From: a virus
Lineage: Duplodnaviria; Caudoviricetes
Strand: one strand, 5' to 3'
DNA length: 64,000 bases
IMG/VR virus record: IMGVR_UViG_3300030330_004160
Coordinates: 121,387-185,386 of that record
A model generated the notes under the pieces. That model was not told the DNA's origin. It did not search any database and worked only from the letters and a program-made list of their open reading frames with translations. A program made the position numbers and the translations under genes. Numbering within the stretch: position 1 is the stretch's first letter; every line of letters begins with the position of its first letter. Below, piece by piece: positions 29,224 through 64,000 of the stretch.

Positions 29224-29439
29224 ATGGGGAAACTATACAGGACTGTTAAGAGAGGCGATTTAATAAGGTTCACTGCTCGGGGATATAGAAAACAAAAGAT
29301 ATTGGCTCTAGTAATAGAGGCATACCATTATCATGACATTCCCGAGAAGTTTGAGTCGCTTTTTTATGTATATCTGATAACTTTTGATGATATGATGTTC
29401 ATTGAACCACAGGATTTTTTAGACTTGGAGGTATTGTGA
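29224..29439 (+). CDS. Small SH3/KOW-like hypothetical protein
   Basis: VKRGDLIRF...DLEVL, same terminal pattern as the array family. Confidence 0.45.
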   Translation: MGKLYRTVKRGDLIRFTARGYRKQKILALVIEAYHYHDIPEKFESLFYVYLITFDDMMFIEPQDFLDLEVL

Positions 29440-30424: not shown

Positions 30425-31121
30425 ACTTTATGGAGATGATATAGGATATGTTGAGTATATTGACCATATGGGCACCGATACTACTGTCGTTAATGCTGCT
30501 CGTGTATCTTTTGGTAAACATAAGGAAGTAATGGACGAGAAGGATGAGAAACTGATAAAGTATCTCATCAAGCACCGTCACACTTCTCCATTCGAACATT
30601 GCTCGGTGACCTTTCGGTTCACCGTTCCTTTGTTTGTGAGATCTCAACACCACAGACACAGAACATGGGCGTATAACGAAATTAGTCGGAGGTATACAAG
30701 TTATGACATTCAATTCTATGAACCAAAACAATTCAGGGCCCAACATAAGTCTAACCGACAGGCTAGTGTACTTGACAGTGGCGTTAATCCTGTCCTATAC
30801 CCTGATTTGGCTGATATGGACTTCGGCGTAAAGGCATCCGATGTTGTAAAAACACACCATAAAAAGTCTCTTGGTCTTTATCAACTACTTATTAATAGAG
30901 GTGTGTGTCGGGAGCAGGCTCGTGGAGTCCTGCCTCAAAATATGTACACTCAATATTACGGAACGGTAAACATGTCAAATCTTTTGAAGTTTGTTGACTT
31001 GAGAACTCATGAGGGAGCACAATGGGAGATAGCAAAAGTAGGAAAAGCCTGCCTTGATATCGCGATGGATCTATGGCCAGTTTCCATTTCCGCTTGGAGT
31101 GAGATGCGAGGTGGATCCTAG
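30411..31121 (+). CDS. thyX: FAD-dependent thymidylate synthase
   Basis: AARVS, HTSPFEH, RHRTWAYNEISRRY, REQARGVLP, AQWEI. Confidence 0.95.
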   Translation: MKKVELYGDDIGYVEYIDHMGTDTTVVNAARVSFGKHKEVMDEKDEKLIKYLIKHRHTSPFEHCSVTFRFTVPLFVRSQHHRHRTWAYNEISRRYTSYDIQFYEPKQFRAQHKSNRQASVLDSGVNPVLYPDLADMDFGVKASDVVKTHHKKSLGLYQLLINRGVCREQARGVLPQNMYTQYYGTVNMSNLLKFVDLRTHEGAQWEIAKVGKACLDIAMDLWPVSISAWSEMRGGS

Positions 31122-38814: not shown

Positions 38815-39003
38815 ATGCTATGGAAAGAACTGCGATGTATTAAGGAATTGGCAGGCATTGAAAAAGGAACTCTTGCGTGTGTTTTCCGAGATGTGCCGGG
38901 AGAAAAATTCATATGGATATATGTAAACCATTCCATATATAATGTACGACAGTTTAAAATTCCAAAAAGTATTTTAAAGGAACACTTTGCATGTTTAAGT
39001 TAG
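38815..39003 (+). CDS. Hypothetical protein
   Basis: 62-aa ORF just after a CTAGTTA motif. Confidence 0.45.
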   Translation: MLWKELRCIKELAGIEKGTLACVFRDVPGEKFIWIYVNHSIYNVRQFKIPKSILKEHFACLS

Positions 39004-39194
39004 GAGATTTAGTTAGATATGTGCCCTACAACTCCGAGACGCCAGGATCATGGATCATGTATGGAGGCATTGGAATCATAGTCGCCATTCTCCCAGATAT
39101 GCAGAGCAGCGTTCAAGTATATAAAGTAAGATGGCTTGAAAATATGGAGGAGTCGCTACTTCCAGGTGATTTTTTGAAAATATTGGAGATTTAA
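38991..39194 (+). CDS. Small SH3/KOW-like protein (array family outlier)
   Basis: MFKLGDLVRY...GIGIIV...YKVRW...FLKIL. Confidence 0.6.
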   Translation: MFKLGDLVRYVPYNSETPGSWIMYGGIGIIVAILPDMQSSVQVYKVRWLENMEESLLPGDFLKILEI

Positions 39195-53781: not shown

Positions 53782-54107
53782 TGAAAGTTGACAAACCTTG
53801 GGGCCATGAAATAAGGTGGGCCATAACTGATAAATATCTGGGCAAGATTTTAAGAATCGAACCAGGACAGAAACTATCAAAACAATATCATGAGGTCAAA
53901 GATGAAAGCATTTATGTCTTAGAAGGAGTGTTGGTGCTGGAAGTGGGAGATGAAAAAAGAATAATGCTCCCCGGCTCTGCGTACCATATCACGCCGGGCA
54001 CAGTCCATAGATTTGCGGCACCATCAGATGGCTGCACATTGGTGGAAGTCTCCACTCCGGAGATAGATGATGTAGTCAGATTGGAAGATGAATATGGTCG
54101 TGCATAA
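53781..54107 (+). CDS. Cupin (mannose-6-phosphate isomerase C-terminal-like)
   Basis: VDKPWG, LSKQYH..K.E, HRF, EVST...DVVRLEDEYGR. Confidence 0.85.
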   Translation: MKVDKPWGHEIRWAITDKYLGKILRIEPGQKLSKQYHEVKDESIYVLEGVLVLEVGDEKRIMLPGSAYHITPGTVHRFAAPSDGCTLVEVSTPEIDDVVRLEDEYGRA

Positions 54108-54121
54108 ATAAAAAATACACA

Positions 54122-54167
54122 AAAGCCCCCGAGCCCTGCGGATTTTTCCGTGGGGCTTTGTTTTTTT
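54122..54167 (+). terminator. Rho-independent terminator
   Basis: AAAGCCCC...GGGGCTTT followed by a T-tract. Confidence 0.55.
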
Positions 54168-54197
54168 CGCCTACTTATTTATAGGGGGAAAATATGG

Positions 54198-54902
54198 ATG
54201 ACTTATTTATTAGGATTATTGGCGTTACTTTCGTGTGACGTTGGGCTGCAAGCAGATTCTGACGGGGTTTCTGTAGAGGTACAGCAGGTTGCCAACTATG
54301 GCAACAGGGGACTAAAGAGATCATTTGACTCTGCGGTTCAACTTACAACTTATCAAGACGGAGAAGCCATCGGAACAGCATCCGGTGGCTATTTTATTTA
54401 TAATGGACACAAATTTATATTAACTGCGGCTCATGTTGTTGACGGTGGTGATGAATTTGTAGCCCACGAAAGGTATGGTATAGAAACTGTGAAGTGTAGG
54501 GTACTGTATGTTAATAGAGTATACGATATAGCAGTTATTGTTCCCGAAGGGGATTTTAAGACAATGAAGCCAATAAAGTTTACATACGACTATAGCATGA
54601 AGAGAGGAGAGCCGCTTTATTATACTGGATATCCTTCTGAAATGCAAGAGATAACGATGCAAGGTTCTTTTGCTGGTGATCTTGATGACTATTATCTGAT
54701 TCAATCATCGGCTTGGATGGGCTCCTCTGGCTCACCAGTGTTTGATGGGCAAGGCAGAGTCATTGGAGTTATTAGTGGGATTGTTATAGGCTGGACACCT
54801 TATGGAACACCACAGTTAGTTAACAATATGGTAGTAGTAAGTCCAATGTGGGCGATAAGCAACAGTTATCTTAAACAAATACTTAAAGATGGAGCAGATT
54901 AA
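54198..54902 (+). CDS. Trypsin-like serine protease, putative lipoprotein
   Basis: LTAAHV, YDIAV, GSSGSPV; lipobox LLSC. Confidence 0.85.
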   Translation: MTYLLGLLALLSCDVGLQADSDGVSVEVQQVANYGNRGLKRSFDSAVQLTTYQDGEAIGTASGGYFIYNGHKFILTAAHVVDGGDEFVAHERYGIETVKCRVLYVNRVYDIAVIVPEGDFKTMKPIKFTYDYSMKRGEPLYYTGYPSEMQEITMQGSFAGDLDDYYLIQSSAWMGSSGSPVFDGQGRVIGVISGIVIGWTPYGTPQLVNNMVVVSPMWAISNSYLKQILKDGAD

Positions 54903-55119
54903 AGTAGGTACTTTAATTGAGGACATGGGTAAGATTGGCATGATTCGAAGAATCATAGATGCTGGTGCATTGGAACATCTGCACCCTGTCGTCAAGTGGC
55001 GAATGAATTACGAAATATATTACTATGATGGTGTGGTGGGGTACCTAGGCTTGGACTCCCTCCAGCGTTTGGTCGATGGAGGTTCAATTAAAGTCATCTT
55101 TGTGCCAGAAGACTCTTGA
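54889..55119 (+). CDS. Small SH3/KOW-like protein (divergent)
   Basis: IKVGTLIED.GKIGMI...YEIYYYDG. Confidence 0.5.
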   Translation: MEQIKVGTLIEDMGKIGMIRRIIDAGALEHLHPVVKWRMNYEIYYYDGVVGYLGLDSLQRLVDGGSIKVIFVPEDS

Positions 55120-55144
55120 CAACTAGTTAGTAGTGTGCTATATT
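55116..55144 (+). promoter_or_regulatory. Sigma70-like promoter
   Basis: TTGACA-17-TATATT. Confidence 0.65.
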
Positions 55145-55166
55145 AGCATTATGAAAAGGAGTTGCA

Positions 55167-55373
55167 ATGCTTATTGAGAACAAAACATCTCATCTAACAA
55201 AGTCAAAATTCGCAGAAAATTGGATGATATTATACATGACCGTTAATCTGGTCAAGTTATTAGAAAACAATGTAGGCTATGAAGATGATGAGATGACAAA
55301 GGAAATATTAAATATTACTTTGAATGAACTTTTCAAAAGTGTTTTAAAGCTAGACAATGGAATATGGAATTGA
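55167..55373 (+). CDS. Hypothetical protein
   Basis: SD AAGGAG. Confidence 0.5.
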   Translation: MLIENKTSHLTKSKFAENWMILYMTVNLVKLLENNVGYEDDEMTKEILNITLNELFKSVLKLDNGIWN

Positions 55374-55626
55374 AGTTGACGAATTGGTAACAATCGAAAT
55401 GATCCAGAAGGGTCATTGGCTTCCAGGTACATTGTTAGATTTAACCGGTCAAATGTTTATGGTGATAGGCTATAACTATTGGGGCTGGATTGAAGACTGC
55501 GATGATGAAAATGTGTATTACGATGTGGTATTGTACCACATTGAAACTGGCTGGTACATAGATTTTCCATTGGCTACTGTGCTGTCATATTCAAAAGTTT
55601 TAGGAGAAGATGATGAAAAAGGGTGA
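55357..55626 (+). CDS. Hypothetical protein
   Basis: 89-aa ORF in a chain of overlapping genes. Confidence 0.5.
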   Translation: MEYGIEVDELVTIEMIQKGHWLPGTLLDLTGQMFMVIGYNYWGWIEDCDDENVYYDVVLYHIETGWYIDFPLATVLSYSKVLGEDDEKG

Positions 55627-55870
55627 TAGAGTTAAGTTGACGAAGTTGATCTCTGAAGATGCAAAAGACTGGCTAATGTCTGAGGGTGAGTTCGACGTGC
55701 TTAAACAGCACCTCGGCAAAATCGGCAAGATAGCACACGTCCAGAAACATTATGAGGGCAAGACCGGAGTTAACTATTTTATTGATGTTGAGTATTCTTC
55801 GGGTTATAAATTGTGGAGGGTCAACAAACTTGCTTTTGAACTGGTTGAGTTTGATTTTGACTATGTTTGA
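55610..55870 (+). CDS. SH3/KOW-like array protein
   Basis: MKKGDRVKL...FELVE. Confidence 0.6.
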   Translation: MMKKGDRVKLTKLISEDAKDWLMSEGEFDVLKQHLGKIGKIAHVQKHYEGKTGVNYFIDVEYSSGYKLWRVNKLAFELVEFDFDYV

Positions 55871-56058
55871 TGAAGCAAGGCGATTTGGTTGTGCATAAAA
55901 AATATGGGGTCGGTGTTGTGTTAGAAGTAAAAGAAATATACTCATCATGGGGTCATCCCAATGTTTGGTATCAAGTTTTATTTGCGAGCGATCTAAACAG
56001 ATCAAATCCTTGCTGGATGGCGGCACAAAACTTGGAGGTGATAAATGAGAGTGGGTGA
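55867..56058 (+). CDS. SH3/KOW-like array protein
   Basis: MKQGDLV...GVGVV...YQVLF...LEVINESG. Confidence 0.7.
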   Translation: MMKQGDLVVHKKYGVGVVLEVKEIYSSWGHPNVWYQVLFASDLNRSNPCWMAAQNLEVINESG

Positions 56059-56224
56059 TCTGGTAAGATTAAACCGAGAGTTCTTCGGAGGAGACCCTCC
56101 AGCAGACATTGGTTTAATTGTGAGACAACTCGTCCCCAGACGAGGTAATATGTTCTTAATATTATGGAACGACGGAGAGGTCGAACCATTCCATGAAGAC
56201 GATTTGGAGGTGGTCTGTGTTTAA
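56045..56224 (+). CDS. SH3/KOW-like array protein (not in ORF track)
   Basis: MRVGDLVRLNREFFGGDPPADIGLIV...ILWNDG...DLEVVCV. Confidence 0.7.
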   Translation: MRVGDLVRLNREFFGGDPPADIGLIVRQLVPRRGNMFLILWNDGEVEPFHEDDLEVVCV

Positions 56225-56399
56225 GGAAGGAGATTTAGTTAGGATTGATTGGGACGAGGGAAATAAAAAACTCGGCCTTGGAATTGTATTGAAAAGATAC
56301 AAGCATCATGATACCCCCCTGCTGGTGTGGTGGACCCGAGCGTGCACTCGTGGCTGGGAAGATGCTGAGATGCTTATTAAAGTGGAAGACGGACAATAA
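56217..56399 (+). CDS. SH3/KOW-like array protein
   Basis: GTG start after GGAGG; FKEGDLVRI...LGIV...VWW. Confidence 0.65.
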   Translation: MFKEGDLVRIDWDEGNKKLGLGIVLKRYKHHDTPLLVWWTRACTRGWEDAEMLIKVEDGQ

Positions 56400-56433
56400 A
56401 TGTCCTGGACTTATGGCTCAAAAGAGTTATGTT
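56391..56433 (+). promoter_or_regulatory. Palindrome promoter cassette 1
   Basis: GGACA-ATAAA-TGTCC, TGGACT-16-TATGTT, SD GAGGAGG. Confidence 0.7.
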
Positions 56434-56456
56434 GTTATTATACCGAGGAGGAAACA

Positions 56457-56747
56457 ATGAATCAATTTGAGATTGGAGATCTGGTACAAACCGAAAGCGG
56501 CAGTCATATTGGCGTAGTTTTTGAAAAAGACTCAGAGAGTCCTTCTTATATTCATTATAGCCTGATAACCCCTTGGTACAGAGTCCTCTGGAATGACGGT
56601 GATATAACCGATGAGGATGGACAAGACATGATACTTTATAAAGGAGGAGATGATCATGGGAATGAAAGCAGATGCGAGGAAGCACAAGAAAGCAGACAAG
56701 AAAGTAGCGAGGGAAGCAATGATGCGACTACTTGCGGACAATGTTGA
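56457..56747 (+). CDS. SH3/KOW-like array protein
   Basis: MNQFEIGDLV...IGVV...YRVLWNDG. Confidence 0.65.
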   Translation: MNQFEIGDLVQTESGSHIGVVFEKDSESPSYIHYSLITPWYRVLWNDGDITDEDGQDMILYKGGDDHGNESRCEEAQESRQESSEGSNDATTCGQC

Positions 56748-56982
56748 GAGTCGCTTTAATGTAAGGTTCGACTCAGACTTCGGCGGACCTACGATGAACA
56801 TCATGGTCGAACGAGAAGAGGGGATTGATTGCAATGGCGATACTCCTTACAAAAAATGGCAAGACAGACCCTCTCCCTTCATGGGGTGGAGGGTGGTGTA
56901 CTCTCATTACCCGCACGGATATCTTGCGGTGTTCTATGATACCGATGGCAACTACAAAGTGACAGCGGAAGCGGAGGCATAA
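56656..56982 (+). CDS. Hypothetical protein
   Basis: SD AAGGAGG; ORF of about 108 aa. Confidence 0.55.
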   Translation: MGMKADARKHKKADKKVAREAMMRLLADNVESRFNVRFDSDFGGPTMNIMVEREEGIDCNGDTPYKKWQDRPSPFMGWRVVYSHYPHGYLAVFYDTDGNYKVTAEAEA

Positions 56983-57140
56983 TGAAGATCGGTGATCTGG
57001 TGAGACTTACCTACACTGGGCTGCTCGGTATAATTGTATCAGCCGAAGACGAACATGGCTGGTATAAAGTGCTGGACTTTAACGGCACTGAATGGGAGTG
57101 TAATGGAATGACTTTGGTGGTTATCAATGAAGGTGGGTGA
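56982..57140 (+). CDS. SH3/KOW-like array protein (not in ORF track)
   Basis: MKIGDLVRLTYTGLLGIIV...YKV...LVVINEGG. Confidence 0.7.
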   Translation: MKIGDLVRLTYTGLLGIIVSAEDEHGWYKVLDFNGTEWECNGMTLVVINEGG

Positions 57141-57330
57141 TCTTGTAACATGGTGCAACGCTCATTATAGATCGCACACCTACGCACAGCCAACAAGGAT
57201 AGGTATTGTGATTGAGGTAGATATACCCTCATGGGATGCTGCCCGAGTGGTGGTTAGGGTCCGGTGGTCGGACGGACATTGTTTTGATTATTTAGCGAGT
57301 GATTTAGAAATAATAAATGAAGGTGGGTGA
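57127..57330 (+). CDS. SH3/KOW-like array protein
   Basis: MKVGDLVTW...IGIV...VRWSDG...DLEIINEGG. Confidence 0.75.
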   Translation: MKVGDLVTWCNAHYRSHTYAQPTRIGIVIEVDIPSWDAARVVVRVRWSDGHCFDYLASDLEIINEGG

Positions 57331-57496
57331 TTTGGTTAAAGTGATTGGTGCTGTTCTTATTTCCGATGGCTACATTGGAATAGTGGTGAAGGCATATCCC
57401 AAATCTGATTTATATGTTGGAGTGTTCTTTCCCGACACAGGCAAAATCCAGTATTTCCACAGAGACACATTGGAGGTGATAAATGAAGGTGGGTGA
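57317..57496 (+). CDS. SH3/KOW-like array protein (not in ORF track)
   Basis: MKVGDLVKV...IGIVV...VFFPDTG...LEVINEGG. Confidence 0.7.
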   Translation: MKVGDLVKVIGAVLISDGYIGIVVKAYPKSDLYVGVFFPDTGKIQYFHRDTLEVINEGG

Positions 57497-57722
57497 CTTG
57501 GTTAGATACAGGAACTACCCTGTTCCTACCATAGGGGTGGTTGTTGATGCCGCCCGGACAGGATCTTATGTCGGGGTTATGTGGTCGAAGCACCCTTGGA
57601 AAAATGCCCAAGGCAAGACTTACCATCATCGCTTTGATTTGGAATTGATAGAAACGGACAATAAATGTCCTGGCAAAGAACACGAGATAGAATATATTAC
57701 TAGTACAACAACGGAGGAATAA
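57483..57722 (+). CDS. SH3/KOW-like array protein
   Basis: MKVGDLVRY...IGVVV...VMW...DLELIETDNKCPG. Confidence 0.75.
   Translation: MKVGDLVRYRNYPVPTIGVVVDAARTGSYVGVMWSKHPWKNAQGKTYHHRFDLELIETDNKCPGKEHEIEYITSTTTEE
57656..57698 (+). promoter_or_regulatory. Palindrome promoter cassette 2
   Basis: GGACA-ATAAA-TGTCC, TGGCAA-16-TATATT, leader ACAACAACGGAGG. Confidence 0.7.
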
Positions 57723-58069
57723 TGGCTTATTTAAGAAAACAAGACACAGTATACTTTTTGAACGATGGTCGACCGGTCTTCTCTTTGGTAGAGAAGGTAG
57801 CCTTTCGAAGGTATCTCTCAAAGAAGATAGACCCAAAGACAGGCAAGGGCAAGATGAGGTCCATGCCGTATGCTATTTGTAAAGTCTATTCATCAGAGGA
57901 CACTACCATCCCCACAGGAGCAGAGTTTCTGATACCTGGCTATAAACTGCGGAACATTACAATGAAAGGAGACAAGATCCTTGTCTTGGACAAGACATAT
58001 GTAGCCGAGTTCAAAGAACAATATGGCAATGAATGGGTTAGCAAGTTGATCAACGAGGAGCGAAAATGA
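57722..58069 (+). CDS. Hypothetical basic protein
   Basis: 115 aa; SD GGAGG. Confidence 0.6.
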   Translation: MAYLRKQDTVYFLNDGRPVFSLVEKVAFRRYLSKKIDPKTGKGKMRSMPYAICKVYSSEDTTIPTGAEFLIPGYKLRNITMKGDKILVLDKTYVAEFKEQYGNEWVSKLINEERK

Positions 58070-58905
58070 GAAGAATGAAATGGGGGAAGGGCACTGTATC
58101 ATGTGGTCTTTGTCATGCCTTGGGGCACAATATAAGGAGTTGTCCTCACTTGGAAGAAGTGTTGATGGAAGCAGAACTAATCTCCGAAACTACTGATGGG
58201 GATATAGGTCGCCCACATAAATACAAGCCGTACCAACACATCAGAGCCCTATGGGAAAAGAAAAAGAGAGAAAAAAGAAAACCAAGACCAGAGTCAGCAA
58301 AGCCCCGCAGGTGTAGTTTTTGTAAGATGGAAGGGCACACCAAGCGGAACTGCACGTTCAAGTCGGAGGTCAAAGATATTTTCTATGAGGCCAATGCTGT
58401 ATGGAGAGCGGCGTTCCTCAAGAGAGCCAAGGAAGTTGGCTTGGGCCCAGGTGCTCTCATAAAAATAAAAAGATTCCAAGCCTACTCTGGTGCTACCGGT
58501 GGGTGGGGGGTCTACAAAAATGTCATTAGTCTTGTGACAAGCGCAGCATGGGATGAACTAACATTCATGAATAGTTATGGCGACCACTGGCAATATCAAT
58601 CACTGTGGTTGATTGAACATCATTTGGCAATCCCCGACAACAATGTCAAAGTCAAAATAGGCCAGCCGGAACTTAAACAATTCTTCGGCGCACTTTTTTA
58701 TGCTGACCCGTTACATAATAAAGGCATTAAAACCATAGAGATTATTAACAAGGCTCCGATGCCTTTAGATGATGCGTGGGTATACAATAAAGAAGTGAAA
58801 GAACTTGACTGGCTAATAGCACAGCACTCGTTGGGAGAACTTGAGCGTGATTATGCCATCATACCTTTGGCCGAGAGCATAATCAAAAATGGAATACGTC
58901 CATGA
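58066..58905 (+). CDS. Protein with two CCHC zinc knuckles
   Basis: CGLCHALGHNIRSC and CSFCKMEGHTKRNC (CX2CX4HX4C). Confidence 0.7.
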   Translation: MRRMKWGKGTVSCGLCHALGHNIRSCPHLEEVLMEAELISETTDGDIGRPHKYKPYQHIRALWEKKKREKRKPRPESAKPRRCSFCKMEGHTKRNCTFKSEVKDIFYEANAVWRAAFLKRAKEVGLGPGALIKIKRFQAYSGATGGWGVYKNVISLVTSAAWDELTFMNSYGDHWQYQSLWLIEHHLAIPDNNVKVKIGQPELKQFFGALFYADPLHNKGIKTIEIINKAPMPLDDAWVYNKEVKELDWLIAQHSLGELERDYAIIPLAESIIKNGIRP

Positions 58906-59120
58906 CTTACGGCTTCAACATGGGCGACTTGGTCTGGTGCGGACTCTCCCGTCCCAAAATGGGAGTCATTGTCGGCTTTGATTCGTCAGCGTTTGGCTAT
59001 CTTCAAGCCGTTCTTGTCGTGTGGATTATTGAACTTGGTGACTCCTATCGCTTCCTTGCTGAAGACTGTCGGGTTGTTGACCCGGACACAAATTGTCCTG
59101 GCGGACTTCCAAAGATGTGA
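58902..59120 (+). CDS. SH3/KOW-like array protein
   Basis: FNMGDLVW...MGVIV...VVW...DTNCPG. Confidence 0.65.
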   Translation: MTYGFNMGDLVWCGLSRPKMGVIVGFDSSAFGYLQAVLVVWIIELGDSYRFLAEDCRVVDPDTNCPGGLPKM

Positions 59121-59126
59121 TACATT
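59084..59126 (+). promoter_or_regulatory. Palindrome promoter cassette 3
   Basis: GGACA-CAAAT-TGTCC, TGGCGG-16-TACATT, SD AAGGAGGTG. Confidence 0.7.
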
Positions 59127-59150
59127 ACTACCATACCAAGGAGGTGCTGA

Positions 59151-59330
59151 ATGAAAGTAGGTGATTTGGTTAGAGACACAAAGGCTGAATGGCGGGGCTT
59201 TGGAATTGTTGTGAAGACAGGCAAGTTCGGCATCAATGATACACTTTTAATCTCCGTCATCTGGCCTTGCGATGGAGGAGTCAGAACTTGTGGACCACCG
59301 GGTAGATACGAGGCGGTAAAATGCGGATAG
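59151..59330 (+). CDS. SH3/KOW-like array protein (not in ORF track)
   Basis: MKVGDLVRDTKAEWRGFGIVV...VIW. Confidence 0.7.
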   Translation: MKVGDLVRDTKAEWRGFGIVVKTGKFGINDTLLISVIWPCDGGVRTCGPPGRYEAVKCG

Positions 59331-59509
59331 GTGACTTGGTGAGATGCTGGCGATGGGGAATTCCTGAAATGAGCGAAATGTCTTTAGGAGTTATTGTTGG
59401 CTTTAATGAAAAGGGCGAAGGTGGAAAAGACTTCGTTCATGTTTTTGTCGGTGATGAAGTTATTATTTTTATGCACTTTGATGTGGAGGTGATAAATGAA
59501 AGTGGGTGA
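59321..59509 (+). CDS. SH3/KOW-like array protein
   Basis: MRIGDLVR...LGVIV...DVEVINESG. Confidence 0.7.
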   Translation: MRIGDLVRCWRWGIPEMSEMSLGVIVGFNEKGEGGKDFVHVFVGDEVIIFMHFDVEVINESG

Positions 59510-59750
59510 TTTGGTAAGGTTTAATGAACTTGGTGTTGAGTGGTACATGAATCTTTGTGATTTTGAAGATGACGATGAGGGCTTTGATCAATTCCTTCGT
59601 TTCTCCGTGGTTGGTATTGTGTTGGGTGAAGTGGAGATCAAGGAATTTCTCCTGCCCTCATCAACCGAGCGGCGCATATTGTGGTCTTATCCGCGCCTGT
59701 ATGAAGAGGTCGATGAGCGTTACATTGAGGTGATAAATGAAAGTGGGTGA
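59496..59750 (+). CDS. SH3/KOW-like array protein
   Basis: MKVGDLVRF...VGIV...ILW...IEVINESG. Confidence 0.7.
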   Translation: MKVGDLVRFNELGVEWYMNLCDFEDDDEGFDQFLRFSVVGIVLGEVEIKEFLLPSSTERRILWSYPRLYEEVDERYIEVINESG

Positions 59751-59922
59751 CTTAGTGAGATGGAAGAACCGAGGCACACAATTTGATTACATGATAGGAG
59801 TGCTGCTGGATATCTACACAGACGGAGCAGGACGAGAAAGGTGCAATATTCTCTGGACCTGCGAGAGAGAAAGAGAAGACTGGATACCGCTTGATATACT
59901 GGAGGCATACAATGAAGTTTAA
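59737..59922 (+). CDS. SH3/KOW-like array protein
   Basis: MKVGDLVRW...IGVLL...ILW...LEAYNEV. Confidence 0.7.
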   Translation: MKVGDLVRWKNRGTQFDYMIGVLLDIYTDGAGRERCNILWTCEREREDWIPLDILEAYNEV

Positions 59923-60151
59923 GGTAGGCGATTTGATATTTGACAAGGACTTCCCTGAAGACGGCATGGCTCTGGTGATAGAGGTGAGAGAGCCAAAGAA
60001 CCGACGAGGGAGATGGTGGAAGATGGAAAACGGCTATCGGTGCTTGGAAACCCTCACAGGCAAAACCAACTGGTACACGGTTGGATATGTGGAGGAAGAA
60101 TGTGAAATGGTCAAAGCGGACACAAACTGCCCTGGACTAAAAGAAAAATAA
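59912..60151 (+). CDS. SH3/KOW-like array protein (paralogue of 61157..61393)
   Basis: MKFKVGDLI...EPKNRRGRWWK...ADTNCPG. Confidence 0.7.
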   Translation: MKFKVGDLIFDKDFPEDGMALVIEVREPKNRRGRWWKMENGYRCLETLTGKTNWYTVGYVEEECEMVKADTNCPGLKEK

Positions 60152-60160
60152 AGATATATT
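60118..60160 (+). promoter_or_regulatory. Palindrome promoter cassette 4 (drives uvsE)
   Basis: GGACA-CAAAC-TGCCC, TGGACT-16-TATATT, SD GAGGAGGTG. Confidence 0.7.
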
Positions 60161-60184
60161 ACTACCATACCGAGGAGGTGTGTT

Positions 60185-61096
60185 ATGGAACTTGGATATG
60201 CTTGTATCAATATGACCTTGTCCAAAGGTAAGCCAAGAGTTACCACGAACAGGACAATGATTAGACGGACCTTCGATGCTAAGGGTCTACCCTATGCTTC
60301 GGAGTTGTTCCTACAGAACTCTCTTGATTTATTGCGAATACTCAAGTGGAATCAGCAGCGGAACATCAAGTTCTTCCGGCTGTCCTCACAGATTGTATCG
60401 TGGGCATCAGAGTATGAACTCACGGACTTGCCCGACTACGACAAGATTGAGGAGGTGCTGTTCAAGTGTGGGCTGTTTATCGAAGAACATGGTATGCGGG
60501 TGACCACTCATCCCGACCATTTTGTCAAACTTGCTTCGCCCAAGAAAGATGTGGTCGACAATGCTATTCGTGACTTGGAGATTCACGGCGAGGTCTTTGA
60601 CTTGTTGTGCCTGCCTCGTTCACCATTCGCCAAGATCAATATACATGTGGGTGCTGCCTATGGTGACAAGCCTATGGCTCTTGATAACTTCTGCCGTAAC
60701 TTCCACCGACTATCAGACTCCGTCAAGTCTCGCTTGACTGTGGAGAACGATGACCGAGCGTCGCTGTATTCAGCCAAAGAGTTGTATGACTTGGTATACA
60801 AGCGCATCGGCACACCGATTGTCTTTGACTATCACCACCACAAGTTCAACACTGGCGGGCTATCAGAGCAAGAGGCTTTGGAGGTATCCGCTTCCACTTG
60901 GGGTGATATTACTCCCGTCACTCACTACTCACAGTCTCGGTCTGTGGAACACAACGATCCCAAGATCAAAGCCAATGCCCACAGCGATTCCTACTGGACA
61001 CCAGTGCAGACCTACGGTCTTGATGTTGATGTGATGTTGGAGTGCAAACACAAAGAACTCGGTCTATTCAAGATGCGAGAACTACTCGGACAATAA
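60185..61096 (+). CDS. uvsE: UV damage endonuclease
   Basis: LGYACIN, FFRLSS, HPDHF, INIHVG, LTVENDD, FDYHHH, HYS, AHSD, MLECK.KE. Confidence 0.93.
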   Translation: MELGYACINMTLSKGKPRVTTNRTMIRRTFDAKGLPYASELFLQNSLDLLRILKWNQQRNIKFFRLSSQIVSWASEYELTDLPDYDKIEEVLFKCGLFIEEHGMRVTTHPDHFVKLASPKKDVVDNAIRDLEIHGEVFDLLCLPRSPFAKINIHVGAAYGDKPMALDNFCRNFHRLSDSVKSRLTVENDDRASLYSAKELYDLVYKRIGTPIVFDYHHHKFNTGGLSEQEALEVSASTWGDITPVTHYSQSRSVEHNDPKIKANAHSDSYWTPVQTYGLDVDVMLECKHKELGLFKMRELLGQ

Positions 61097-61130
61097 ATGT
61101 CCTGGACTTTTCTTGGAAACTGGATACATT
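61088..61130 (+). promoter_or_regulatory. Palindrome promoter cassette 5
   Basis: GGACA-ATAAA-TGTCC, TGGACT-16-TACATT, leader ACCAACAACGGAGG. Confidence 0.7.
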
Positions 61131-61156
61131 ATTTATACCAACAACGGAGGTGGTGA

Positions 61157-61393
61157 ATGAAGTTTAAGATAGGTGACTTGCTATACGACAGGGATTACCC
61201 TGAAGATGGCTTTGCTTTGGTTGTTGAGGTGAAAGAGCCAAAGAACCGAAGAGGGAGATGGTGGAAGAACTCTAATGGCTATCGCTGCTATGAAATACTG
61301 ACAGGAAAATACGCTTGGTACACCACCGGCTACATAGAGGAAGAGTGCGAAATGGTCAAAGCGGACAATAAATGTCCTGGACTAAATGATTGA
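61157..61393 (+). CDS. SH3/KOW-like array protein (paralogue of 59912..60151)
   Basis: 58 of 78 residues identical to the 59912 copy by manual alignment. Confidence 0.7.
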   Translation: MKFKIGDLLYDRDYPEDGFALVVEVKEPKNRRGRWWKNSNGYRCYEILTGKYAWYTTGYIEEECEMVKADNKCPGLND

Positions 61394-61405
61394 AAAGGTT
61401 AGATT
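61363..61405 (+). promoter_or_regulatory. Palindrome promoter cassette 6
   Basis: GGACA-ATAAA-TGTCC, TGGACT-16-TAGATT, leader ACCAACAACGGAG. Confidence 0.7.
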
Positions 61406-61429
61406 AGATATACCAACAACGGAGATAAC

Positions 61430-61621
61430 ATGACTGATAACAAAAACGAGGTGACTATCACCATCAATGTGAGCGATTCGCTCCTTAATACTTTTGCTAA
61501 TCTTTTGATTTTAGCCAACGTACCTGCTCCCCAAGTACTGGGGCTACCCCCTGGTATGGCCGTTGCGAAACCGCCACAAAACAAAGCCCCTATCGGCTTT
61601 AAAGCACAGGTGAAGAAATGA
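61430..61621 (+). CDS. Hypothetical protein
   Basis: 63 aa; SD GGAG; ends in a PIGF motif. Confidence 0.55.
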   Translation: MTDNKNEVTITINVSDSLLNTFANLLILANVPAPQVLGLPPGMAVAKPPQNKAPIGFKAQVKK

Positions 61622-61878
61622 GTTATAAAAACAAAGAAGAATCAAAATGGAAAATTGGTGACTTGGTAACTCTTTCATCGGCAGGACTACGAACAGACCA
61701 GAACAGAGGTTTGACCAAGAGGAATGAAGATGGAAGGTTAGTTCCATATGGATTTGGGATGGTCACCAATGTCCTCAATTGTAGGCTTGAAAGATGGCCT
61801 GTTCGCTGCCGATGGATCGCAGGACCACAAGAGTTTGCAAGTTTTGCTGATTATGAATTGAAGAGGTACAAAGTATGA
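61618..61878 (+). CDS. SH3/KOW-like array protein
   Basis: SKWKIGDLVTLS...GFGMV...DYELKRYK. Confidence 0.7.
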   Translation: MSYKNKEESKWKIGDLVTLSSAGLRTDQNRGLTKRNEDGRLVPYGFGMVTNVLNCRLERWPVRCRWIAGPQEFASFADYELKRYKV

Positions 61879-62087
61879 AGAAATCAAAATGGAAGGTAGG
61901 CGATTTAGTGACCCTATCCGCAGCAGGTAGGAAAAGCCAACAGAATTATCAGGTGCTGGGAGGCTTCGGCTTGGTGGTACACGTATCAGACCATTGGAGC
62001 GACAACTACCCTATTCGTTGTCACTGGATTGGAGGCGAAGTGGAGTTTCAAACATTCAAGGACTACGAACTGAAAAGATATAAGTAG
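61875..62087 (+). CDS. SH3/KOW-like array protein (tandem paralogue of the preceding gene)
   Basis: SKWKVGDLVTLS...GFGLV...DYELKRYK. Confidence 0.7.
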   Translation: MKKSKWKVGDLVTLSAAGRKSQQNYQVLGGFGLVVHVSDHWSDNYPIRCHWIGGEVEFQTFKDYELKRYK

Positions 62088-62129
62088 GACACAATCTGTC
62101 CTGGACTATTTATCTGGGGCGGATATATT
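62087..62129 (+). promoter_or_regulatory. Palindrome promoter cassette 7
   Basis: GGACA-CAATC-TGTCC, TGGACT-16-TATATT. Confidence 0.7.
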
Positions 62130-62153
62130 ACTACCATCAACAGCGGAGATAAT

Positions 62154-62303
62154 ATGAAGATTGGTGACTTGGTTAGAGACTTAAAGGACGGCAGGATTGC
62201 CGTGGTGATTGGAACTCATTCTACGGGATACCAACGGGTTCGATTCGTTGATAGTGCCGACAGAGTATGGAGAGTCCATCTGAATGACTTGGAGGCAGTA
62301 TGA
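62154..62303 (+). CDS. SH3/KOW-like array protein (not in ORF track)
   Basis: MKIGDLVRDLKDGRIAVVI...RVRF...DLEAV. Confidence 0.7.
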   Translation: MKIGDLVRDLKDGRIAVVIGTHSTGYQRVRFVDSADRVWRVHLNDLEAV

Positions 62304-62464
62304 AGTTTAAGGTAGGCGATTTGATTATAAGGAAGAGTGGTGGACTGCTGGCTATAGTGGTAAACACCGATAGGCAGGACAGAGGCATTATAAAGGTTCA
62401 GTTTTATGGAGGCTGGGACCCTGAGTGGTGCGACCAACCGGTGGACGCTTGGAGGCATCAATGA
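62300..62464 (+). CDS. SH3/KOW-like array protein (not in ORF track)
   Basis: MKFKVGDLIIRKSGGLLAIVV...KVQF. Confidence 0.65.
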   Translation: MKFKVGDLIIRKSGGLLAIVVNTDRQDRGIIKVQFYGGWDPEWCDQPVDAWRHQ

Positions 62465-62560
62465 AAATATTAATTGATAGGCGAATGTTGTTGACTTTCG
62501 CCGCAGCAGATGCGGTCTTCTGGTTCTCATTGGGAGCATTTATATTTTCAGGAGGTTGCG

Positions 62561-62752
62561 ATGGAATATAAGGTAGGCGATTTGGTTAAAGACTTGAGTG
62601 ATGGTGAGATGATGATAATAGCGAAGATAAGACAGCCATCAGAAGATGACCCAAGAAGGATATGCTGCTGGTCACCGAAACACAGCGACTTCTACTGGTA
62701 TGACCACGAGGATATGGATTATTGGTTGAGGGTGATAGAATGTCCTGGATAA
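62561..62752 (+). CDS. SH3/KOW-like array protein
   Basis: MEYKVGDLVKD...LRVIECPG; SD AGGAGG. Confidence 0.65.
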   Translation: MEYKVGDLVKDLSDGEMMIIAKIRQPSEDDPRRICCWSPKHSDFYWYDHEDMDYWLRVIECPG

Positions 62753-62805
62753 GAAGAAACAGACAGAATAATAATTGGTATTATATAAAACAAAGAGAGG
62801 AACAG

Positions 62806-63096
62806 ATGAAATACAGACAAGTAACATGCAAAGATGGATTTACAATGTCGGTCCAAGCAGGCGAGAATCTACATTCAAGCCCCAAGCAAAACTCTGCGGA
62901 GCGGTACGAAGAAGTGGAAATAGGCTACCCCTCCGCAAAAGAGAGTTTAATACTGGAATATGCCGAAAGACCTGAAACTCCAACGGATACGGTTTATGCC
63001 TATGTGCCGGTACATATTGTTACCCTTGTAATTGCCAAGCACGGAGGCATCGTAAGTGGGGAGGTTCCACCGGGAGTTATAGCACTCCCAGCATAA
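62806..63096 (+). CDS. Phage hypothetical protein
   Basis: CKDGFTMSVQAG...VEIGYPS...PTDTVYAYVP resembles a motif seen in other phage hypotheticals. Confidence 0.6.
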   Translation: MKYRQVTCKDGFTMSVQAGENLHSSPKQNSAERYEEVEIGYPSAKESLILEYAERPETPTDTVYAYVPVHIVTLVIAKHGGIVSGEVPPGVIALPA

Positions 63097-63098
63097 AC

Positions 63099-63142
63099 GG
63101 ACAGAAAATGTCCTGGTGCCCTACTGGAGGAGGGGGTATATT
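63099..63142 (+). promoter_or_regulatory. Palindrome promoter cassette 8
   Basis: GGACA-GAAAA-TGTCC, TGGTGC-17-TATATT, leader CAACAACGGAGG. Confidence 0.7.
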
Positions 63143-63163
63143 ACTAACATCAACAACGGAGGA

Positions 63164-63415
63164 ATGATGAACGATAAAGTAGAAGCAATGCAAGAAGCAA
63201 TAGAATTTATCCAGAGAACTTGGCTCGGAAGTTTTCAAGGAAGTTGGGAAGGCCCAGTCAATGACTTTGTCGGCGCAACCATAGGCGAAGAGATAACCAT
63301 CGAAGATGTGCAAGCCATCGTGGAAGCATACAAGTCGGGAGAATGGACACCAGTTCAAAATATTGATGGAGATATTGAGAACGGAAGGCTGACAAAAGTT
63401 AGAGTTTGGAAATGA
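63164..63415 (+). CDS. Hypothetical protein
   Basis: SD GGAGG; follows a promoter cassette. Confidence 0.55.
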   Translation: MMNDKVEAMQEAIEFIQRTWLGSFQGSWEGPVNDFVGATIGEEITIEDVQAIVEAYKSGEWTPVQNIDGDIENGRLTKVRVWK

Positions 63416-63687
63416 GACGAGTGAAAAAAACATATCTAATTAACCTCGTGTGTATTGCGGGTGTATATTATGCCTTGTTTATGGCAAGCACTATTAAAAA
63501 CTGGAGGAAACGTGTACGGAACAAAGATACAAAGAGCCCAATTGACCGCTTCAAATATAGCCACCCTGATAGCCCTGCAAGTTGTGTTGGATGCTATCGA
63601 CAGGGAACCGGACGAAGAGACGAGAGCCTATCTCAATGAGAGAATGAAAGAACTATTCAAAGACCCCATGTGCGCTGAAGCCTGACC

Positions 63688-63730
63688 GGACACAAACTGT
63701 CCTGGACTATTTATCTAAAGCGGATATACT
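63688..63730 (+). promoter_or_regulatory. Palindrome promoter cassette 9
   Basis: GGACA-CAAAC-TGTCC, TGGACT-16-TATACT, SD AAGGAG. Confidence 0.7.
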
Positions 63731-63752
63731 GTTAGTATGAAAAGGAGAGAAC

Positions 63753-63917
63753 ATGGAGTGGATAGGCGAGTTCATAGAGTGGGCCGGATTTTACGGCATC
63801 GTTACAGAGGTTGTTGAAACTAACCATCACACTGGCTCTGTCATTTTGAGAGTTCATTGGACAGATGGTGGAACAAGCACCATGTACGCAGACGAACTAA
63901 CGAGGTTTAAGGAATGA
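63753..63917 (+). CDS. SH3/KOW-like array protein, divergent (not in ORF track)
   Basis: MEWIGEFIE...YGIVTEV...RVHWTDG...DEL. Confidence 0.6.
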   Translation: MEWIGEFIEWAGFYGIVTEVVETNHHTGSVILRVHWTDGGTSTMYADELTRFKE

Positions 63918-64000
63918 AAGTAGGTGACTCGGTGAGATATAAACATGATGGCACAATGGGTGTTATCTTCTACATCAACCCGGAAGGAGGCACTATTAAA
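63914..64000 (+). CDS. SH3/KOW-like array protein, truncated by the window end
   Basis: MKVGDSVRYKHDGTMGVI. Confidence 0.6.
   Translation, partial: MKVGDSVRYKHDGTMGVIFYINPEGGTIK

What the first reader, a model, noticed from the sequence alone, without database searches (positions are those of the whole stretch)
55610..64000. Array of about 23 paralogous, hypervariable SH3/KOW-like mini-proteins: a possible diversified phage binder arsenal
Seen: 23 ORFs of about 50-100 aa start at 55610, 55867, 56045, 56217, 56457, 56982, 57127, 57317, 57483, 58902, 59151, 59321, 59496, 59737, 59912, 61157, 61618, 61875, 62154, 62300, 62561, 63753 and 63914; eight of them are missing from the ORF track. Most share the framework MK(V/I)GDLV - variable loop - G(I/V)(V/I)V - variable loop - (Y)xVxW/F - xxG - (D)LE(V/I)I, while loop length and sequence differ widely. 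Outliers occur at 29224, 31111, 38991, 53038 and 54889, and the array runs off the window end. Established: this strand pattern matches small SH3/KOW/Tudor-type beta-barrels, which are generic protein or nucleic-acid binding scaffolds. Inference: one scaffold expanded more than 20-fold with variable loops in a probable early region suggests a repertoire of binders for host takeover, anti-defence or decoy roles. I do not recognise this as a characterised system.
Basis: partly seen in the sequence, partly recalled or inferred. Interest (0 to 1): 0.88.

Follow-up and report, generated by a model that had tools for sequence, protein, structure and literature searches.

The report
Expanded SH3-like mini-protein cassette array
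An uncultured 185-kb marine phage carries at least 33 very different copies of one tiny barrel-shaped protein, encoded as overlapping gene cassettes behind repeated host-type promoters and gained, lost or swapped even between close relatives; what each protein binds is still unknown.

Summary
A profile built from the ORFs finds 33 members in the 185,386-bp genome. All are on the + strand, none among 1,117 minus-strand ORFs, none in a reversed control. The array resumes at the contig start (31 members in about 16 kb).

Two AlphaFold models (pLDDT 86 and 94) give the same five-strand SH3/KOW/Tudor/PsaE-like barrel. No Pfam family fits.

The LEVINE(S/G)G tail is the ribosome site, start and MKVGD of the next gene. 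The D(N/T)KCPG tail is a promoter palindrome read in frame.

Five complete related phages carry 12 to 36 copies with no one-to-one orthologues, although interspersed non-family genes stay orthologous. A close relative (73-93% nt) shares 27 orthologues but differs by at least five cassette gains, losses or swaps at the junction or promoter repeats.

dN/dS is 0.18, and loops (0.19) match framework (0.15). The proteins are constrained, not hypervariable alleles.

This scan found the same family earlier in at least seven other marine phage genomes. Function remains inferred: early accessory binders.

The parts
55867..56058 (+). mini-protein member, 63 aa
   Evidence: HMM E=4.6e-16. The N-terminus also scores 25.8 bits on Pfam CarD_TRCF_RID.
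56045..56224 (+). member, 59 aa
   Evidence: HMM E=1.4e-10. Overlaps the previous gene by 14 nt.
56217..56399 (+). member, about 60 aa from a GTG start
   Evidence: HMM E=1.2e-12 for ORF 56193-56399. Its end runs into the promoter palindrome at 56391.
56457..56747 (+). member with an acidic C-terminal tail, 96 aa
   Evidence: HMM E=2.4e-12.
56982..57140 (+). member, 52 aa
   Evidence: HMM E=3e-9. Has a 72% identical orthologue in L002.
57127..57330 (+). member, 67 aa (first structure model)
   Evidence: HMM E=7.1e-17. AF2 pLDDT 86 with a five-strand barrel. Orthologues at 73-86% identity in metagenomes.
57317..57496 (+). member, 59 aa
   Evidence: HMM E=2.9e-13. Replaced by a different cassette in relative L002.
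57483..57722 (+). member, 79 aa; its tail reads through promoter cassette 57656
   Evidence: HMM E=6.6e-16; promoter motif.
58902..59120 (+). member, 72 aa
   Evidence: HMM E=2.5e-16.
59151..59330 (+). member, 59 aa
   Evidence: HMM E=1.7e-9. Relative L092 has one extra cassette inserted just upstream.
59321..59509 (+). member, 62 aa
   Evidence: HMM E=4.2e-9.
59496..59750 (+). member with a long acidic loop, 84 aa
   Evidence: HMM E=1.8e-5, the weakest member.
59737..59922 (+). member, 61 aa
   Evidence: HMM E=7.9e-14.
59912..60151 (+). member, 79 aa; recent paralogue of 61157
   Evidence: HMM E=8e-18. 74% identical to the 61157 gene.
61157..61393 (+). member, 78 aa; a duplicate flanked by two promoter cassettes and absent from relative L092
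   Evidence: HMM E=8.3e-16. Absence in L092 and flanking repeats shown.
61618..61878 (+). member, 86 aa ('ELKRYK' subfamily)
   Evidence: HMM E=8.4e-11.
61875..62087 (+). member, 70 aa ('ELKRYK' subfamily; second structure model)
   Evidence: HMM E=2.1e-12. AF2 pLDDT 94.3. Best solved match is PsaE: Z 9.0, rmsd 1.7 A, 60 residues aligned.
62154..62303 (+). member, 49 aa
   Evidence: HMM E=9.8e-11.
62300..62464 (+). member, 54 aa
   Evidence: HMM E=2.5e-11.
62561..62752 (+). member, 63 aa
   Evidence: HMM E=3.1e-15 for ORF 62510-62752.
63753..63917 (+). member, 54 aa
   Evidence: HMM E=6.1e-9.
63914..64000 (+). 5' part of a member, cut by the contig end
   Evidence: It reads MKVGDSVRYKHDGTMGVIF... 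It does not join in frame to the member fragment at the contig start. Relative L092 has 1.2 kb with about six more cassettes at this point.
55610..55870 (+).
   Evidence: HMM E=3.1; no Pfam or PHROG hit.
29224..29439 (+). solitary member outside the array, 71 aa
   Evidence: HMM E=1.4e-7.
38991..39194 (+). solitary member outside the array, 67 aa
   Evidence: HMM E=1.7e-10.
56391..56445 (+). promoter cassette: GGACA-N5-TGTCC hairpin, then TGGAC-type -35 and TAYATT -10
   Evidence: One of 16 copies genome-wide, all + strand and all inside the array region, against about 1 expected by shuffling.
57656..57710 (+). promoter cassette
   Evidence: Palindrome motif; sigma-70-like hexamers CTGGCA-17-TATATT.
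59084..59136 (+). promoter cassette
   Evidence: Palindrome motif; hairpin of -11.4 kcal/mol.
61088..61140 (+). promoter cassette
   Evidence: Palindrome motif; left boundary of the extra 61157 gene.
61363..61415 (+). promoter cassette
   Evidence: Palindrome motif; right boundary of the extra 61157 gene.
62087..62140 (+). promoter cassette
   Evidence: Palindrome motif; TGGACT-16-TATATT.
63099..63152 (+). promoter cassette
   Evidence: Palindrome motif.
63688..63740 (+). promoter cassette
   Evidence: Palindrome motif; TGGACT-16-TATACT.
60185..61096 (+). UV damage endonuclease (UvdE) gene embedded in the array
   Evidence: The orthologue in L092 carries Pfam PF03851 UvdE.
57722..58905 (+). 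two non-family genes (115 aa; 279 aa with two CCHC-type Cys/His motifs) interspersed in the array
   Evidence: No Pfam hit. Both are conserved in the distant relatives at 24-55% identity, unlike the mini-genes.

Best explanation
Shown. The region is a hyperplastic accessory module of an uncultured 185-kb marine myovirus. It encodes one family of free-standing small beta-barrel proteins of 50-90 aa with an SH3-like fold. The genome has 33 copies, 31 of them within about 16 kb that spans the contig ends. The genes form short operons behind about 16 repeated cassettes, each a hairpin followed by a sigma-70-like promoter. Inside an operon, each gene's last codons carry the ribosome-binding site, start codon and first five codons of the next gene, in a 14-nt overlap. 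Each paralogue is under purifying selection along its whole length, loops included. The repertoire changes by gain, loss, duplication and replacement of whole cassettes, with breakpoints at the junction repeat or the promoter repeat.

Inferred. The overlaps probably couple translation of successive genes. The genes are probably transcribed early by host RNA polymerase. Each protein probably acts as a small single-domain adaptor that binds one particular host or phage macromolecule through its own loops. Together they would form an exchangeable set of host-takeover or counter-defence accessory factors. The set each phage lineage keeps would be tuned to its hosts.
For: - Family membership and strand specificity.
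- Fold: AF2 pLDDT 86 and 94.3 with the same five-strand topology. Matches are to KOW, Tudor, PsaE, NdhS, PetP, YorP and R67 DHFR barrels at Z 7-9 and TM 0.6-0.76.
- Real coding genes: 23 gap-free orthologue pairs against L092 give pooled dN/dS 0.18 over 1,266 codons, with framework 0.15 and loops 0.19.
- Junction dual coding and SD codon choice.
- Promoter cassettes: 16 copies against about 1 expected, all + strand and all confined to the array. Sigma-70-like hexamers and a strong terminator at 54131 lie upstream of the module.
- Clade-wide expansion: 14 or more, 36, 12, 22 and 33 copies in five complete relatives.
- Orthology control: no one-to-one orthologues between these genomes, while interspersed non-family genes remain orthologous at 24-74% identity.
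- Strain-level turnover: 27 orthologues but at least 5 indels or replacements against L092, bounded by GGAGGT..ATGAARGT or by the promoter repeat. A cassette swap is also seen in L002.
- Precedents for small non-essential beta-barrel phage proteins acting in host interaction: PMC11578894 and PMC12152347.
Against: - No binding partner, expression data or phenotype exists for any member. Early timing rests only on promoter resemblance.
- The host is unknown.
- The SH3-like fold does not point to any particular ligand class.
- pI values range from 4.0 to 9.6, so no single kind of ligand is indicated.
- There is no sign of positive selection in the loops, which an arms-race binder set might be expected to show at the allelic level.
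Confidence: 0.5

Rival explanations
1. The mini-proteins are nucleic-acid-binding regulators of the KOW, LSm, Tudor or CarD-RID type. They would modulate host or phage transcription, RNA stability or translation early in infection, rather than acting as protein-protein adaptors.
For: The best fold matches include NusG/Spt5 KOW domains and Tudor or chromo domains. One member scores above the Pfam cut-off on the CarD/TRCF RNA-polymerase-interacting domain, though only over 22 residues. T4 early proteins GoF, MotB.1 and Frd.2 have LSm-like folds, and a GoF mutant stabilises an mRNA (PMC12152347).
Against: Most members are acidic (19 of 33 have pI<6). No Pfam nucleic-acid-binding family is matched by more than one or two of the 33 members. 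More than thirty different regulators of one type in one phage would be hard to explain.
Confidence: 0.2
2. The array is mainly a by-product of recombination-prone repeats. The junction and promoter repeats would drive duplication and exchange, and most copies would be nearly neutral passengers with little individual function.
For: Breakpoints lie exactly at the repeats. Copy number ranges from 12 to more than 40 among relatives. There are recent duplicates (59912 and 61157 at 74% identity; 61618 and 61875 at 47%). A chimeric or broken copy sits at the contig ends.
Against: dN/dS is 0.18 in both framework and loops across 23 orthologue pairs. All copies keep open frames, SD sites and the fold-defining residues. 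Neutral passengers in a size-limited capsid would decay quickly.
Confidence: 0.12
3. The conserved N-terminus MKVGDLV is a capsid-targeting or processing tag, as in the T4 internal proteins. On this reading the family is a set of injected virion proteins.
For: A conserved N-terminus followed by a variable body in a hyperplastic locus recalls the T4 internal-protein locus (my own knowledge, not tested here).
Against: The N-terminus is modelled with pLDDT 94-96 as strand 1 of the barrel, so cleavage would destroy the fold. Its conservation is partly forced by the overlap with the upstream gene's stop codon. The promoters look like sigma-70 early promoters, not late ones.
Confidence: 0.05
4. The array is an actively diversifying hypervariable system in which the loops are under ongoing positive selection or targeted mutagenesis.
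For: Loop length and sequence differ widely between paralogues.
Against: Between orthologues the loop dN/dS is 0.19, not different from the framework value of 0.15 (bootstrap interval for the difference -0.03 to 0.11). Diversity is old and is reshuffled as whole genes.
Confidence: 0.03

Closest known systems
Hyperplastic regions of T4-type phages with PeSL (promoter-early stem-loop) cassettes (Arbiol et al. 2010, PMC2839356)
   Same: Both have clusters of small non-essential genes of unknown function. Both have many copies of a short cassette made of a stem-loop plus a strong sigma-70-like promoter. In both, insertions, deletions and replacements between close relatives are bounded by these repeats.
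   Different: Here most cargo genes belong to one protein family rather than being unrelated ORFans. A second, intragenic recombination joint exists: the dual-coding stop/SD/start overlap. The hairpin is short (5-7 bp, -6.6 to -11.4 kcal/mol), and neither terminator function nor mini-circles were tested.
T4 early LSm-like fold proteins GoF, MotB.1 and Frd.2 (Kim et al. 2025, PMC12152347)
   Same: These are small early phage proteins with a small beta-barrel fold and unknown natural function, present as several copies per genome.
   Different: T4 has three copies with no recognisable sequence similarity and with extra C-terminal parts. Here 33 copies are recognisable by sequence, consist of the barrel alone, and are arranged in coupled operons.
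Gp54 of Escherichia phage Bas11 (Zhang et al. 2024, PMC11578894; Pfam PF25180)
   Same: It is a 66-aa non-essential phage beta-barrel protein of unknown function with a long strand1-strand2 loop. Its nearest solved structures are SH3 domains. It takes part in phage-defence interplay, being sensed by CapRel SJ46.
   Different: Gp54 is a six-stranded barrel. The PF25180 profile finds nothing in this genome at E<=10. No immune sensor is known for the present family.
Single-domain SH3-like proteins PsaE, NdhS, PetP and B. subtilis SPbeta YorP
   Same: They have the same size and topology. Matches are PsaE Z 9.0 with rmsd 1.7 A over 60 residues, YorP TM 0.71 and NdhS Z 7.1. All work as small peripheral adaptor subunits or have unknown function.
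   Different: There is no sequence-level relation: PF02427 and PF09629 find nothing in the genome at E<=10. The phage has no psbA and no evidence of a cyanobacterial host.
Host-takeover module of Bacillus phage SPO1 (my own knowledge, not checked here)
   Same: It is a dense block of about two dozen small early genes in many short operons with strong promoters and ribosome-binding sites.
   Different: The SPO1 genes are unrelated to each other, and no cassette junction is known there.

Membership tests
SH3-like small beta-barrel fold (KOW/Tudor/chromo/PsaE-type) | Five antiparallel strands forming a closed barrel of about 55-70 residues | tested here: met
   Two AF2 models (pLDDT 86 and 94.3) have five strands in the same order. 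Fold matches have Z 6-9 and TM 0.6-0.76.
Pfam KOW (PF00467) | Score above the gathering cut-off (22.3 bits) | tested here: not met
   The best member reaches 12.8 bits, E=0.11. Only KOWx_SPT5 is hit, by 1 of 33 members at E=0.021.
Pfam CarD_TRCF_RID (PF02559) | Full-domain match above 23 bits | tested here: inconclusive
   One of 33 members (55867) reaches 25.8 bits, but only over profile positions 2-23 of 57.
PsaE (PF02427) | Sequence match to the PsaE profile | tested here: not met
   No match in the genome at E<=10. The structural match alone is Z 9.0.
YorP (PF09629) | Sequence match to the YorP profile | tested here: not met
   No match in the genome at E<=10. Structural TM is 0.71.
Gp54 phage antiviral trigger (PF25180) | Sequence match to the profile | tested here: not met
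   No match in the genome at E<=10.
Gp54 phage antiviral trigger (PF25180) | Six-stranded barrel | tested here: inconclusive
   The models here have five strands. No direct structural comparison with PDB 9axb was obtained.
PeSL-type regulatory cassettes of T4-type hyperplastic regions | Repeated unit of a stem-loop followed by a sigma-70-like promoter, confined to a region of small accessory genes | tested here: met
   There are 16 copies, all + strand and all inside the array region. Hairpins fold at -6.6 to -11.4 kcal/mol. TGGACT-16-TATATT hexamers are present.
PeSL-type regulatory cassettes of T4-type hyperplastic regions | Indels between close relatives bounded by the cassettes | tested here: met
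   The extra gene 61157 in this genome is flanked by two cassettes and is absent from L092.
PeSL-type regulatory cassettes of T4-type hyperplastic regions | Promoter and terminator activity; formation of mini-circles | not testable with these tools
   This needs reporter assays and PCR on phage DNA.
Diversity-generating or hypervariable loci | Excess of non-synonymous change in the variable loops between alleles | tested here: not met
   Loop dN/dS is 0.19 against 0.15 for the framework.

The most novel reading that the evidence does not exclude
A large clade of uncultured marine phages maintains a plug-and-play library of miniature SH3-like binders. Each cassette would encode a constrained single-domain protein that neutralises or redirects one host factor or defence protein. 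The dual-coding junction and promoter repeats would be the means by which phages trade these binders, so a genome's repertoire would record the hosts and defences it has met. If so, this would be a new and abundant class of phage counter-defence or takeover proteins, and a natural scaffold library for protein engineering.
Probability: 0.25. Interest if true: 0.85.

Novelty: new variant of a known kind. Interest (0 to 1): 0.62.

Why it matters
A profile search of 1.84 billion representative proteins finds 1,278 representatives at E<=0.001. Many of the best hits are free-standing 50-70-residue proteins like these, and none of the relatives checked carries a name or a Pfam family. The family fills up to a tenth of the gene count of a widespread group of 185-200-kb marine phages.

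The case shows how a phage can expand and reshuffle one protein scaffold using two kinds of short repeat. One of these repeats lies inside coding sequence and is read in two frames.

If the proteins prove to be specific binders of host factors or defence systems, they would be a large untapped source of anti-defence proteins. They would also be a natural minimal binder scaffold. If they are not, the array is still a clear example of cassette-type genome plasticity outside the T4 model phages.

Tried and rejected
- Megablast of the region against GenBank phages gave no match. tblastn of one member against the same collection gave no match at E<=0.01.
- The nearest isolates by DnaE, GroEL and tail sheath are only 27-47% identical, so no cultured relative or host can be named.
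With one member it found nothing in IMG/VR. With the AAA protein it found nothing in GTDB genomes.
- PHROGs gave only weak hits to families of unknown function.
- A profile search against PDB sequences gave a best hit to chromodomains at E=0.025, which is not significant.
- The cyanophage idea, raised by the PsaE, NdhS and PetP fold matches, was rejected. The genome has no psbA and no PsaE profile match.
- Gp54 and YorP membership were rejected at the sequence level.
- I did not run a complex prediction, because the report makes no claim that particular proteins bind each other.
- The multi-domain hits of the profile search (Mind bomb, SLH and PDZ proteins) are generic SH3-like domains, not members of this family.

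Full report
**Setting**

The window is the last 64 kb of a single 185,386-bp viral contig. The contig encodes a contractile tail sheath, a DnaB-type helicase, a class II ribonucleotide reductase, a DnaE-type polymerase and a GroEL. No GenBank phage is close. DnaE, GroEL and sheath reach only 27-47% identity to isolates, and megablast of the region finds nothing. IMG/VR holds 235 contigs with a related GroEL; the 80 kept have 61-72% identity and include five complete genomes of 184-201 kb. Some family members are also recorded from Tara Oceans assemblies. The phage therefore belongs to an uncultured marine clade. Its host is unknown.

**Checking the observation**

I built a profile from clear members and iterated it over all 1,796 ORFs of 30 aa or more in the genome. 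It converged on 33 members at E<0.01.
- All 33 are on the + strand. None of the 1,117 minus-strand ORFs matched, and reversed sequences gave no hit.
- The ORF at 55610 is not significant (E=3.1).
- The ORF at 63914 starts with MKVGD but is cut after 29 codons by the contig end.
- The solitary outliers at 29224 and 38991 are members. Those at 31111, 53038 and 54889 are not significant.
- The array continues at the start of the contig with ten more members between genome positions 141 and 6842. In all, 31 members lie in about 16 kb.

The two contig ends both fall inside mini-genes and do not join in frame. A close relative has 1.2 kb with about six further cassettes at exactly this point. Sequence is therefore probably missing between the ends, and 33 is a lower bound.

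**Shared features: protein or DNA**

The alignment shows the pattern MK(V/I)GDLV, then a loop, G(I/V)(V/I)V, a loop, Y.V.W, a loop, and LE(V/I). Profile matches cover positions 8-67 of the domain in relatives.
- In coupled genes the tail LEVINE(S/G)G-stop is TTG GAG GTG ATA AAT GAA RGT GGG TGA. This string contains the Shine-Dalgarno site GGAGGTG, the ATG and the first five codons (MKVGD) of the next gene, in a 14-nt overlap.
- Glycine 4 is GGT where it overlaps the upstream stop codon and often GGC where it does not.
- The tails D(N/T)(K/N)CPG are the palindrome GGACA-N5-TGTCC-TGG read in frame.
- The LE(V/I) strand itself is also present in the two solitary members, so it is a protein feature as well.

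**Regulatory layout**

The palindrome occurs 16 times in the genome, against about one expected. All copies are on the + strand and all lie within the array region. Each forms a 5-7-bp hairpin of -6.6 to -11.4 kcal/mol. Each is followed by a sigma-70-like promoter such as TGGACT-16-TATATT, then GGAGG and ATG. A strong terminator at 54131 precedes the module. This is the same layout as the PeSL cassettes of T4-type hyperplastic regions (PMC2839356). Early transcription by host polymerase is inferred from it and is not shown.

**Fold**

AlphaFold2 with paralogue alignments gave pLDDT 86 for the 57127 protein and 94.3 for the divergent 61887 protein. Both have five strands in the same order. The second has short helices in the strand1-strand2 loop.
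- Structure searches return only SH3-like small barrels: Spt5/NusG KOW, Tudor, chromo, NdhS, PetP, R67 DHFR, YorP and HspQ at Z about 7.
- For the second model, PsaE scores Z 9.0 with rmsd 1.7 A over 60 residues, and YorP scores TM 0.71.
- In viral and metagenomic structure libraries the nearest neighbours are unnamed viral proteins.
- No Pfam family is matched by more than two of the 33 members. Profiles of PsaE, YorP and Gp54 find nothing in the genome. There is no psbA.

The family fits no named Pfam family.

**Evidence that the genes are real**

A 58.5-kb contig from an NCBI assembly (L092) is 73-93% identical in DNA across the region. It shares 27 orthologous mini-genes at 64-99% amino-acid identity. 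I analysed the 23 gap-free pairs and left out the first and last five codons of each gene, where the overlaps lie.
- Pooled dN/dS is 0.18 over 1,266 codons.
- Conserved framework positions give 0.15 and the remaining positions (loops) give 0.19.
- The bootstrap interval for the difference is -0.03 to 0.11.

Each paralogue, loops included, is therefore under purifying selection. The large loop differences are old differences between paralogues, not allelic hypervariation.

**Turnover**

The five complete distant relatives carry at least 14, and 36, 12, 22 and 33 members in the stretches I fetched, with the same LEVI(N/S)E(S/G)R junction.
- Between these genomes no member has a recognisable one-to-one orthologue. 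The best cross-genome scores (20-43 bits) equal those between paralogues within a genome.
- As a control, the non-family genes scattered through the same region do keep orthologues at 24-74% identity. These include an AAA ATPase, a vWA-metallopeptidase protein, and the 115-aa, 279-aa, 110-aa and 69-aa ORFs.
- Against the close relative L092 there are at least five events:
  - one extra cassette upstream of 59151 in L092;
  - one extra gene plus promoter (61157) in this genome, a 74% identical duplicate of 59912 on the far side of uvdE;
  - 1.2 kb of extra cassettes in L092 at the contig ends;
  - four extra cassettes in L092 after genome position 1726;
  - one replacement (the gene at genome 1399).
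- Homology ends at GGAGGT..ATGAARGT or at the promoter palindrome.
- A second relative (L002) swaps the cassette after 57127 at the junction and carries an unrelated 51-aa insert upstream of 56982.

**Distribution**

A profile search of 1.84 billion representative proteins gave 1,278 hits at E<=0.001. Many of the best hits are free-standing proteins of 50-70 aa, and several inspected begin MKVGDLV and end LEVI(N/S)E... Multi-domain hits are generic SH3-like repeats. Every source name is 'hypothetical protein' and none of the relatives listed has a precomputed Pfam domain.

**Function**

Nothing computed here identifies a ligand.
- pI ranges from 4.0 to 9.6, with an acidic majority.
- The fold is a general adaptor scaffold.
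- The layout (many short operons behind host-type promoters, and non-conserved content between relatives) resembles host-takeover or accessory regions.
- Published cases of small, non-essential phage beta-barrel proteins link them to RNA stability (PMC12152347) or to defence sensing (PMC11578894).

I therefore favour early accessory adaptors with distinct specific partners (about 0.5). A nucleic-acid-binding regulator role comes second (0.2), largely neutral cassette proliferation third (0.12), a capsid-targeting tag fourth (0.05) and active hypervariation last (0.03).

**Earlier notes of this scan**

Two other first-stage notes on this same stretch describe the promoter cassette and the dual-coding junction. 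My tests agree with both. The scan has also followed up the same MKVGDLV mini-gene arrays in at least seven other marine phage genomes and reached the same general conclusion. The PeSL comparison and the Gp54 lead came from those notes. I checked both here.

At 33 or more copies it is the largest count given in the notes returned by the look-up.

Noticed in passing
window 63914-64000 and L001 1-151 (contig ends): Both contig ends lie inside mini-genes, and the two fragments do not join in frame. Relative L092 has an intact version of the second gene plus 1.2 kb of extra cassettes between them. The assembly probably broke or collapsed in the repeat-rich array.
   Followed up: partly
window 59912-61393: The uvdE gene (UV damage endonuclease) is flanked by two 74% identical mini-genes and three promoter cassettes. 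The right-hand copy (61157) and one promoter are absent from L092, which suggests a recent duplication by recombination between promoter repeats.
   Followed up: yes
window 58066-58905: A 279-aa protein with two CCHC-type Cys/His motifs (CGLCHALGHNIRSCPH and CSFCKMEGHTKRNC) has no Pfam hit. It is conserved at 24-29% identity in all five distant relatives and present twice in two of them.
   Followed up: partly
L001 3232-5553 (genome start): A MoxR/AAA_5 ATPase and a DUF2201 protein (putative metallopeptidase plus vWA-like domain) sit in the middle of the array region. They are 59-74% identical across the clade, the best-conserved genes of the module.
   Followed up: partly
window 53783-59172 versus 59151-63927: Identity to relative L092 jumps from 73-76% to 92-93% at about position 59150. 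This mosaic boundary suggests recent recombination between lineages inside the array.
   Followed up: no
window 54131-54158 and 55116-55144: A strong intrinsic terminator (12-bp stem plus T-run) is followed about 1 kb later by a near-consensus sigma-70 promoter (TTGACA-17-TATATT with TG). Together they appear to mark the upstream border of the accessory module.
   Followed up: no
window 61618-62087; L087 10686-10898; L089 14736-15077; L090 9025-9216 and 11616-12017: The 'LSAAG...ELKRYK' subfamily is the only branch of the family with recognisable relatives in the distant genomes (up to 42.7 bits). It has a helical insert in the first loop and may have a more conserved role.
   Followed up: partly
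L001 1796-2515: A 239-aa protein has a DUF7674-like N-terminal part and a C-terminal stretch (YEVGQLVMIRK...) that resembles the mini-protein barrel. It may be a fused relative.
   Followed up: no
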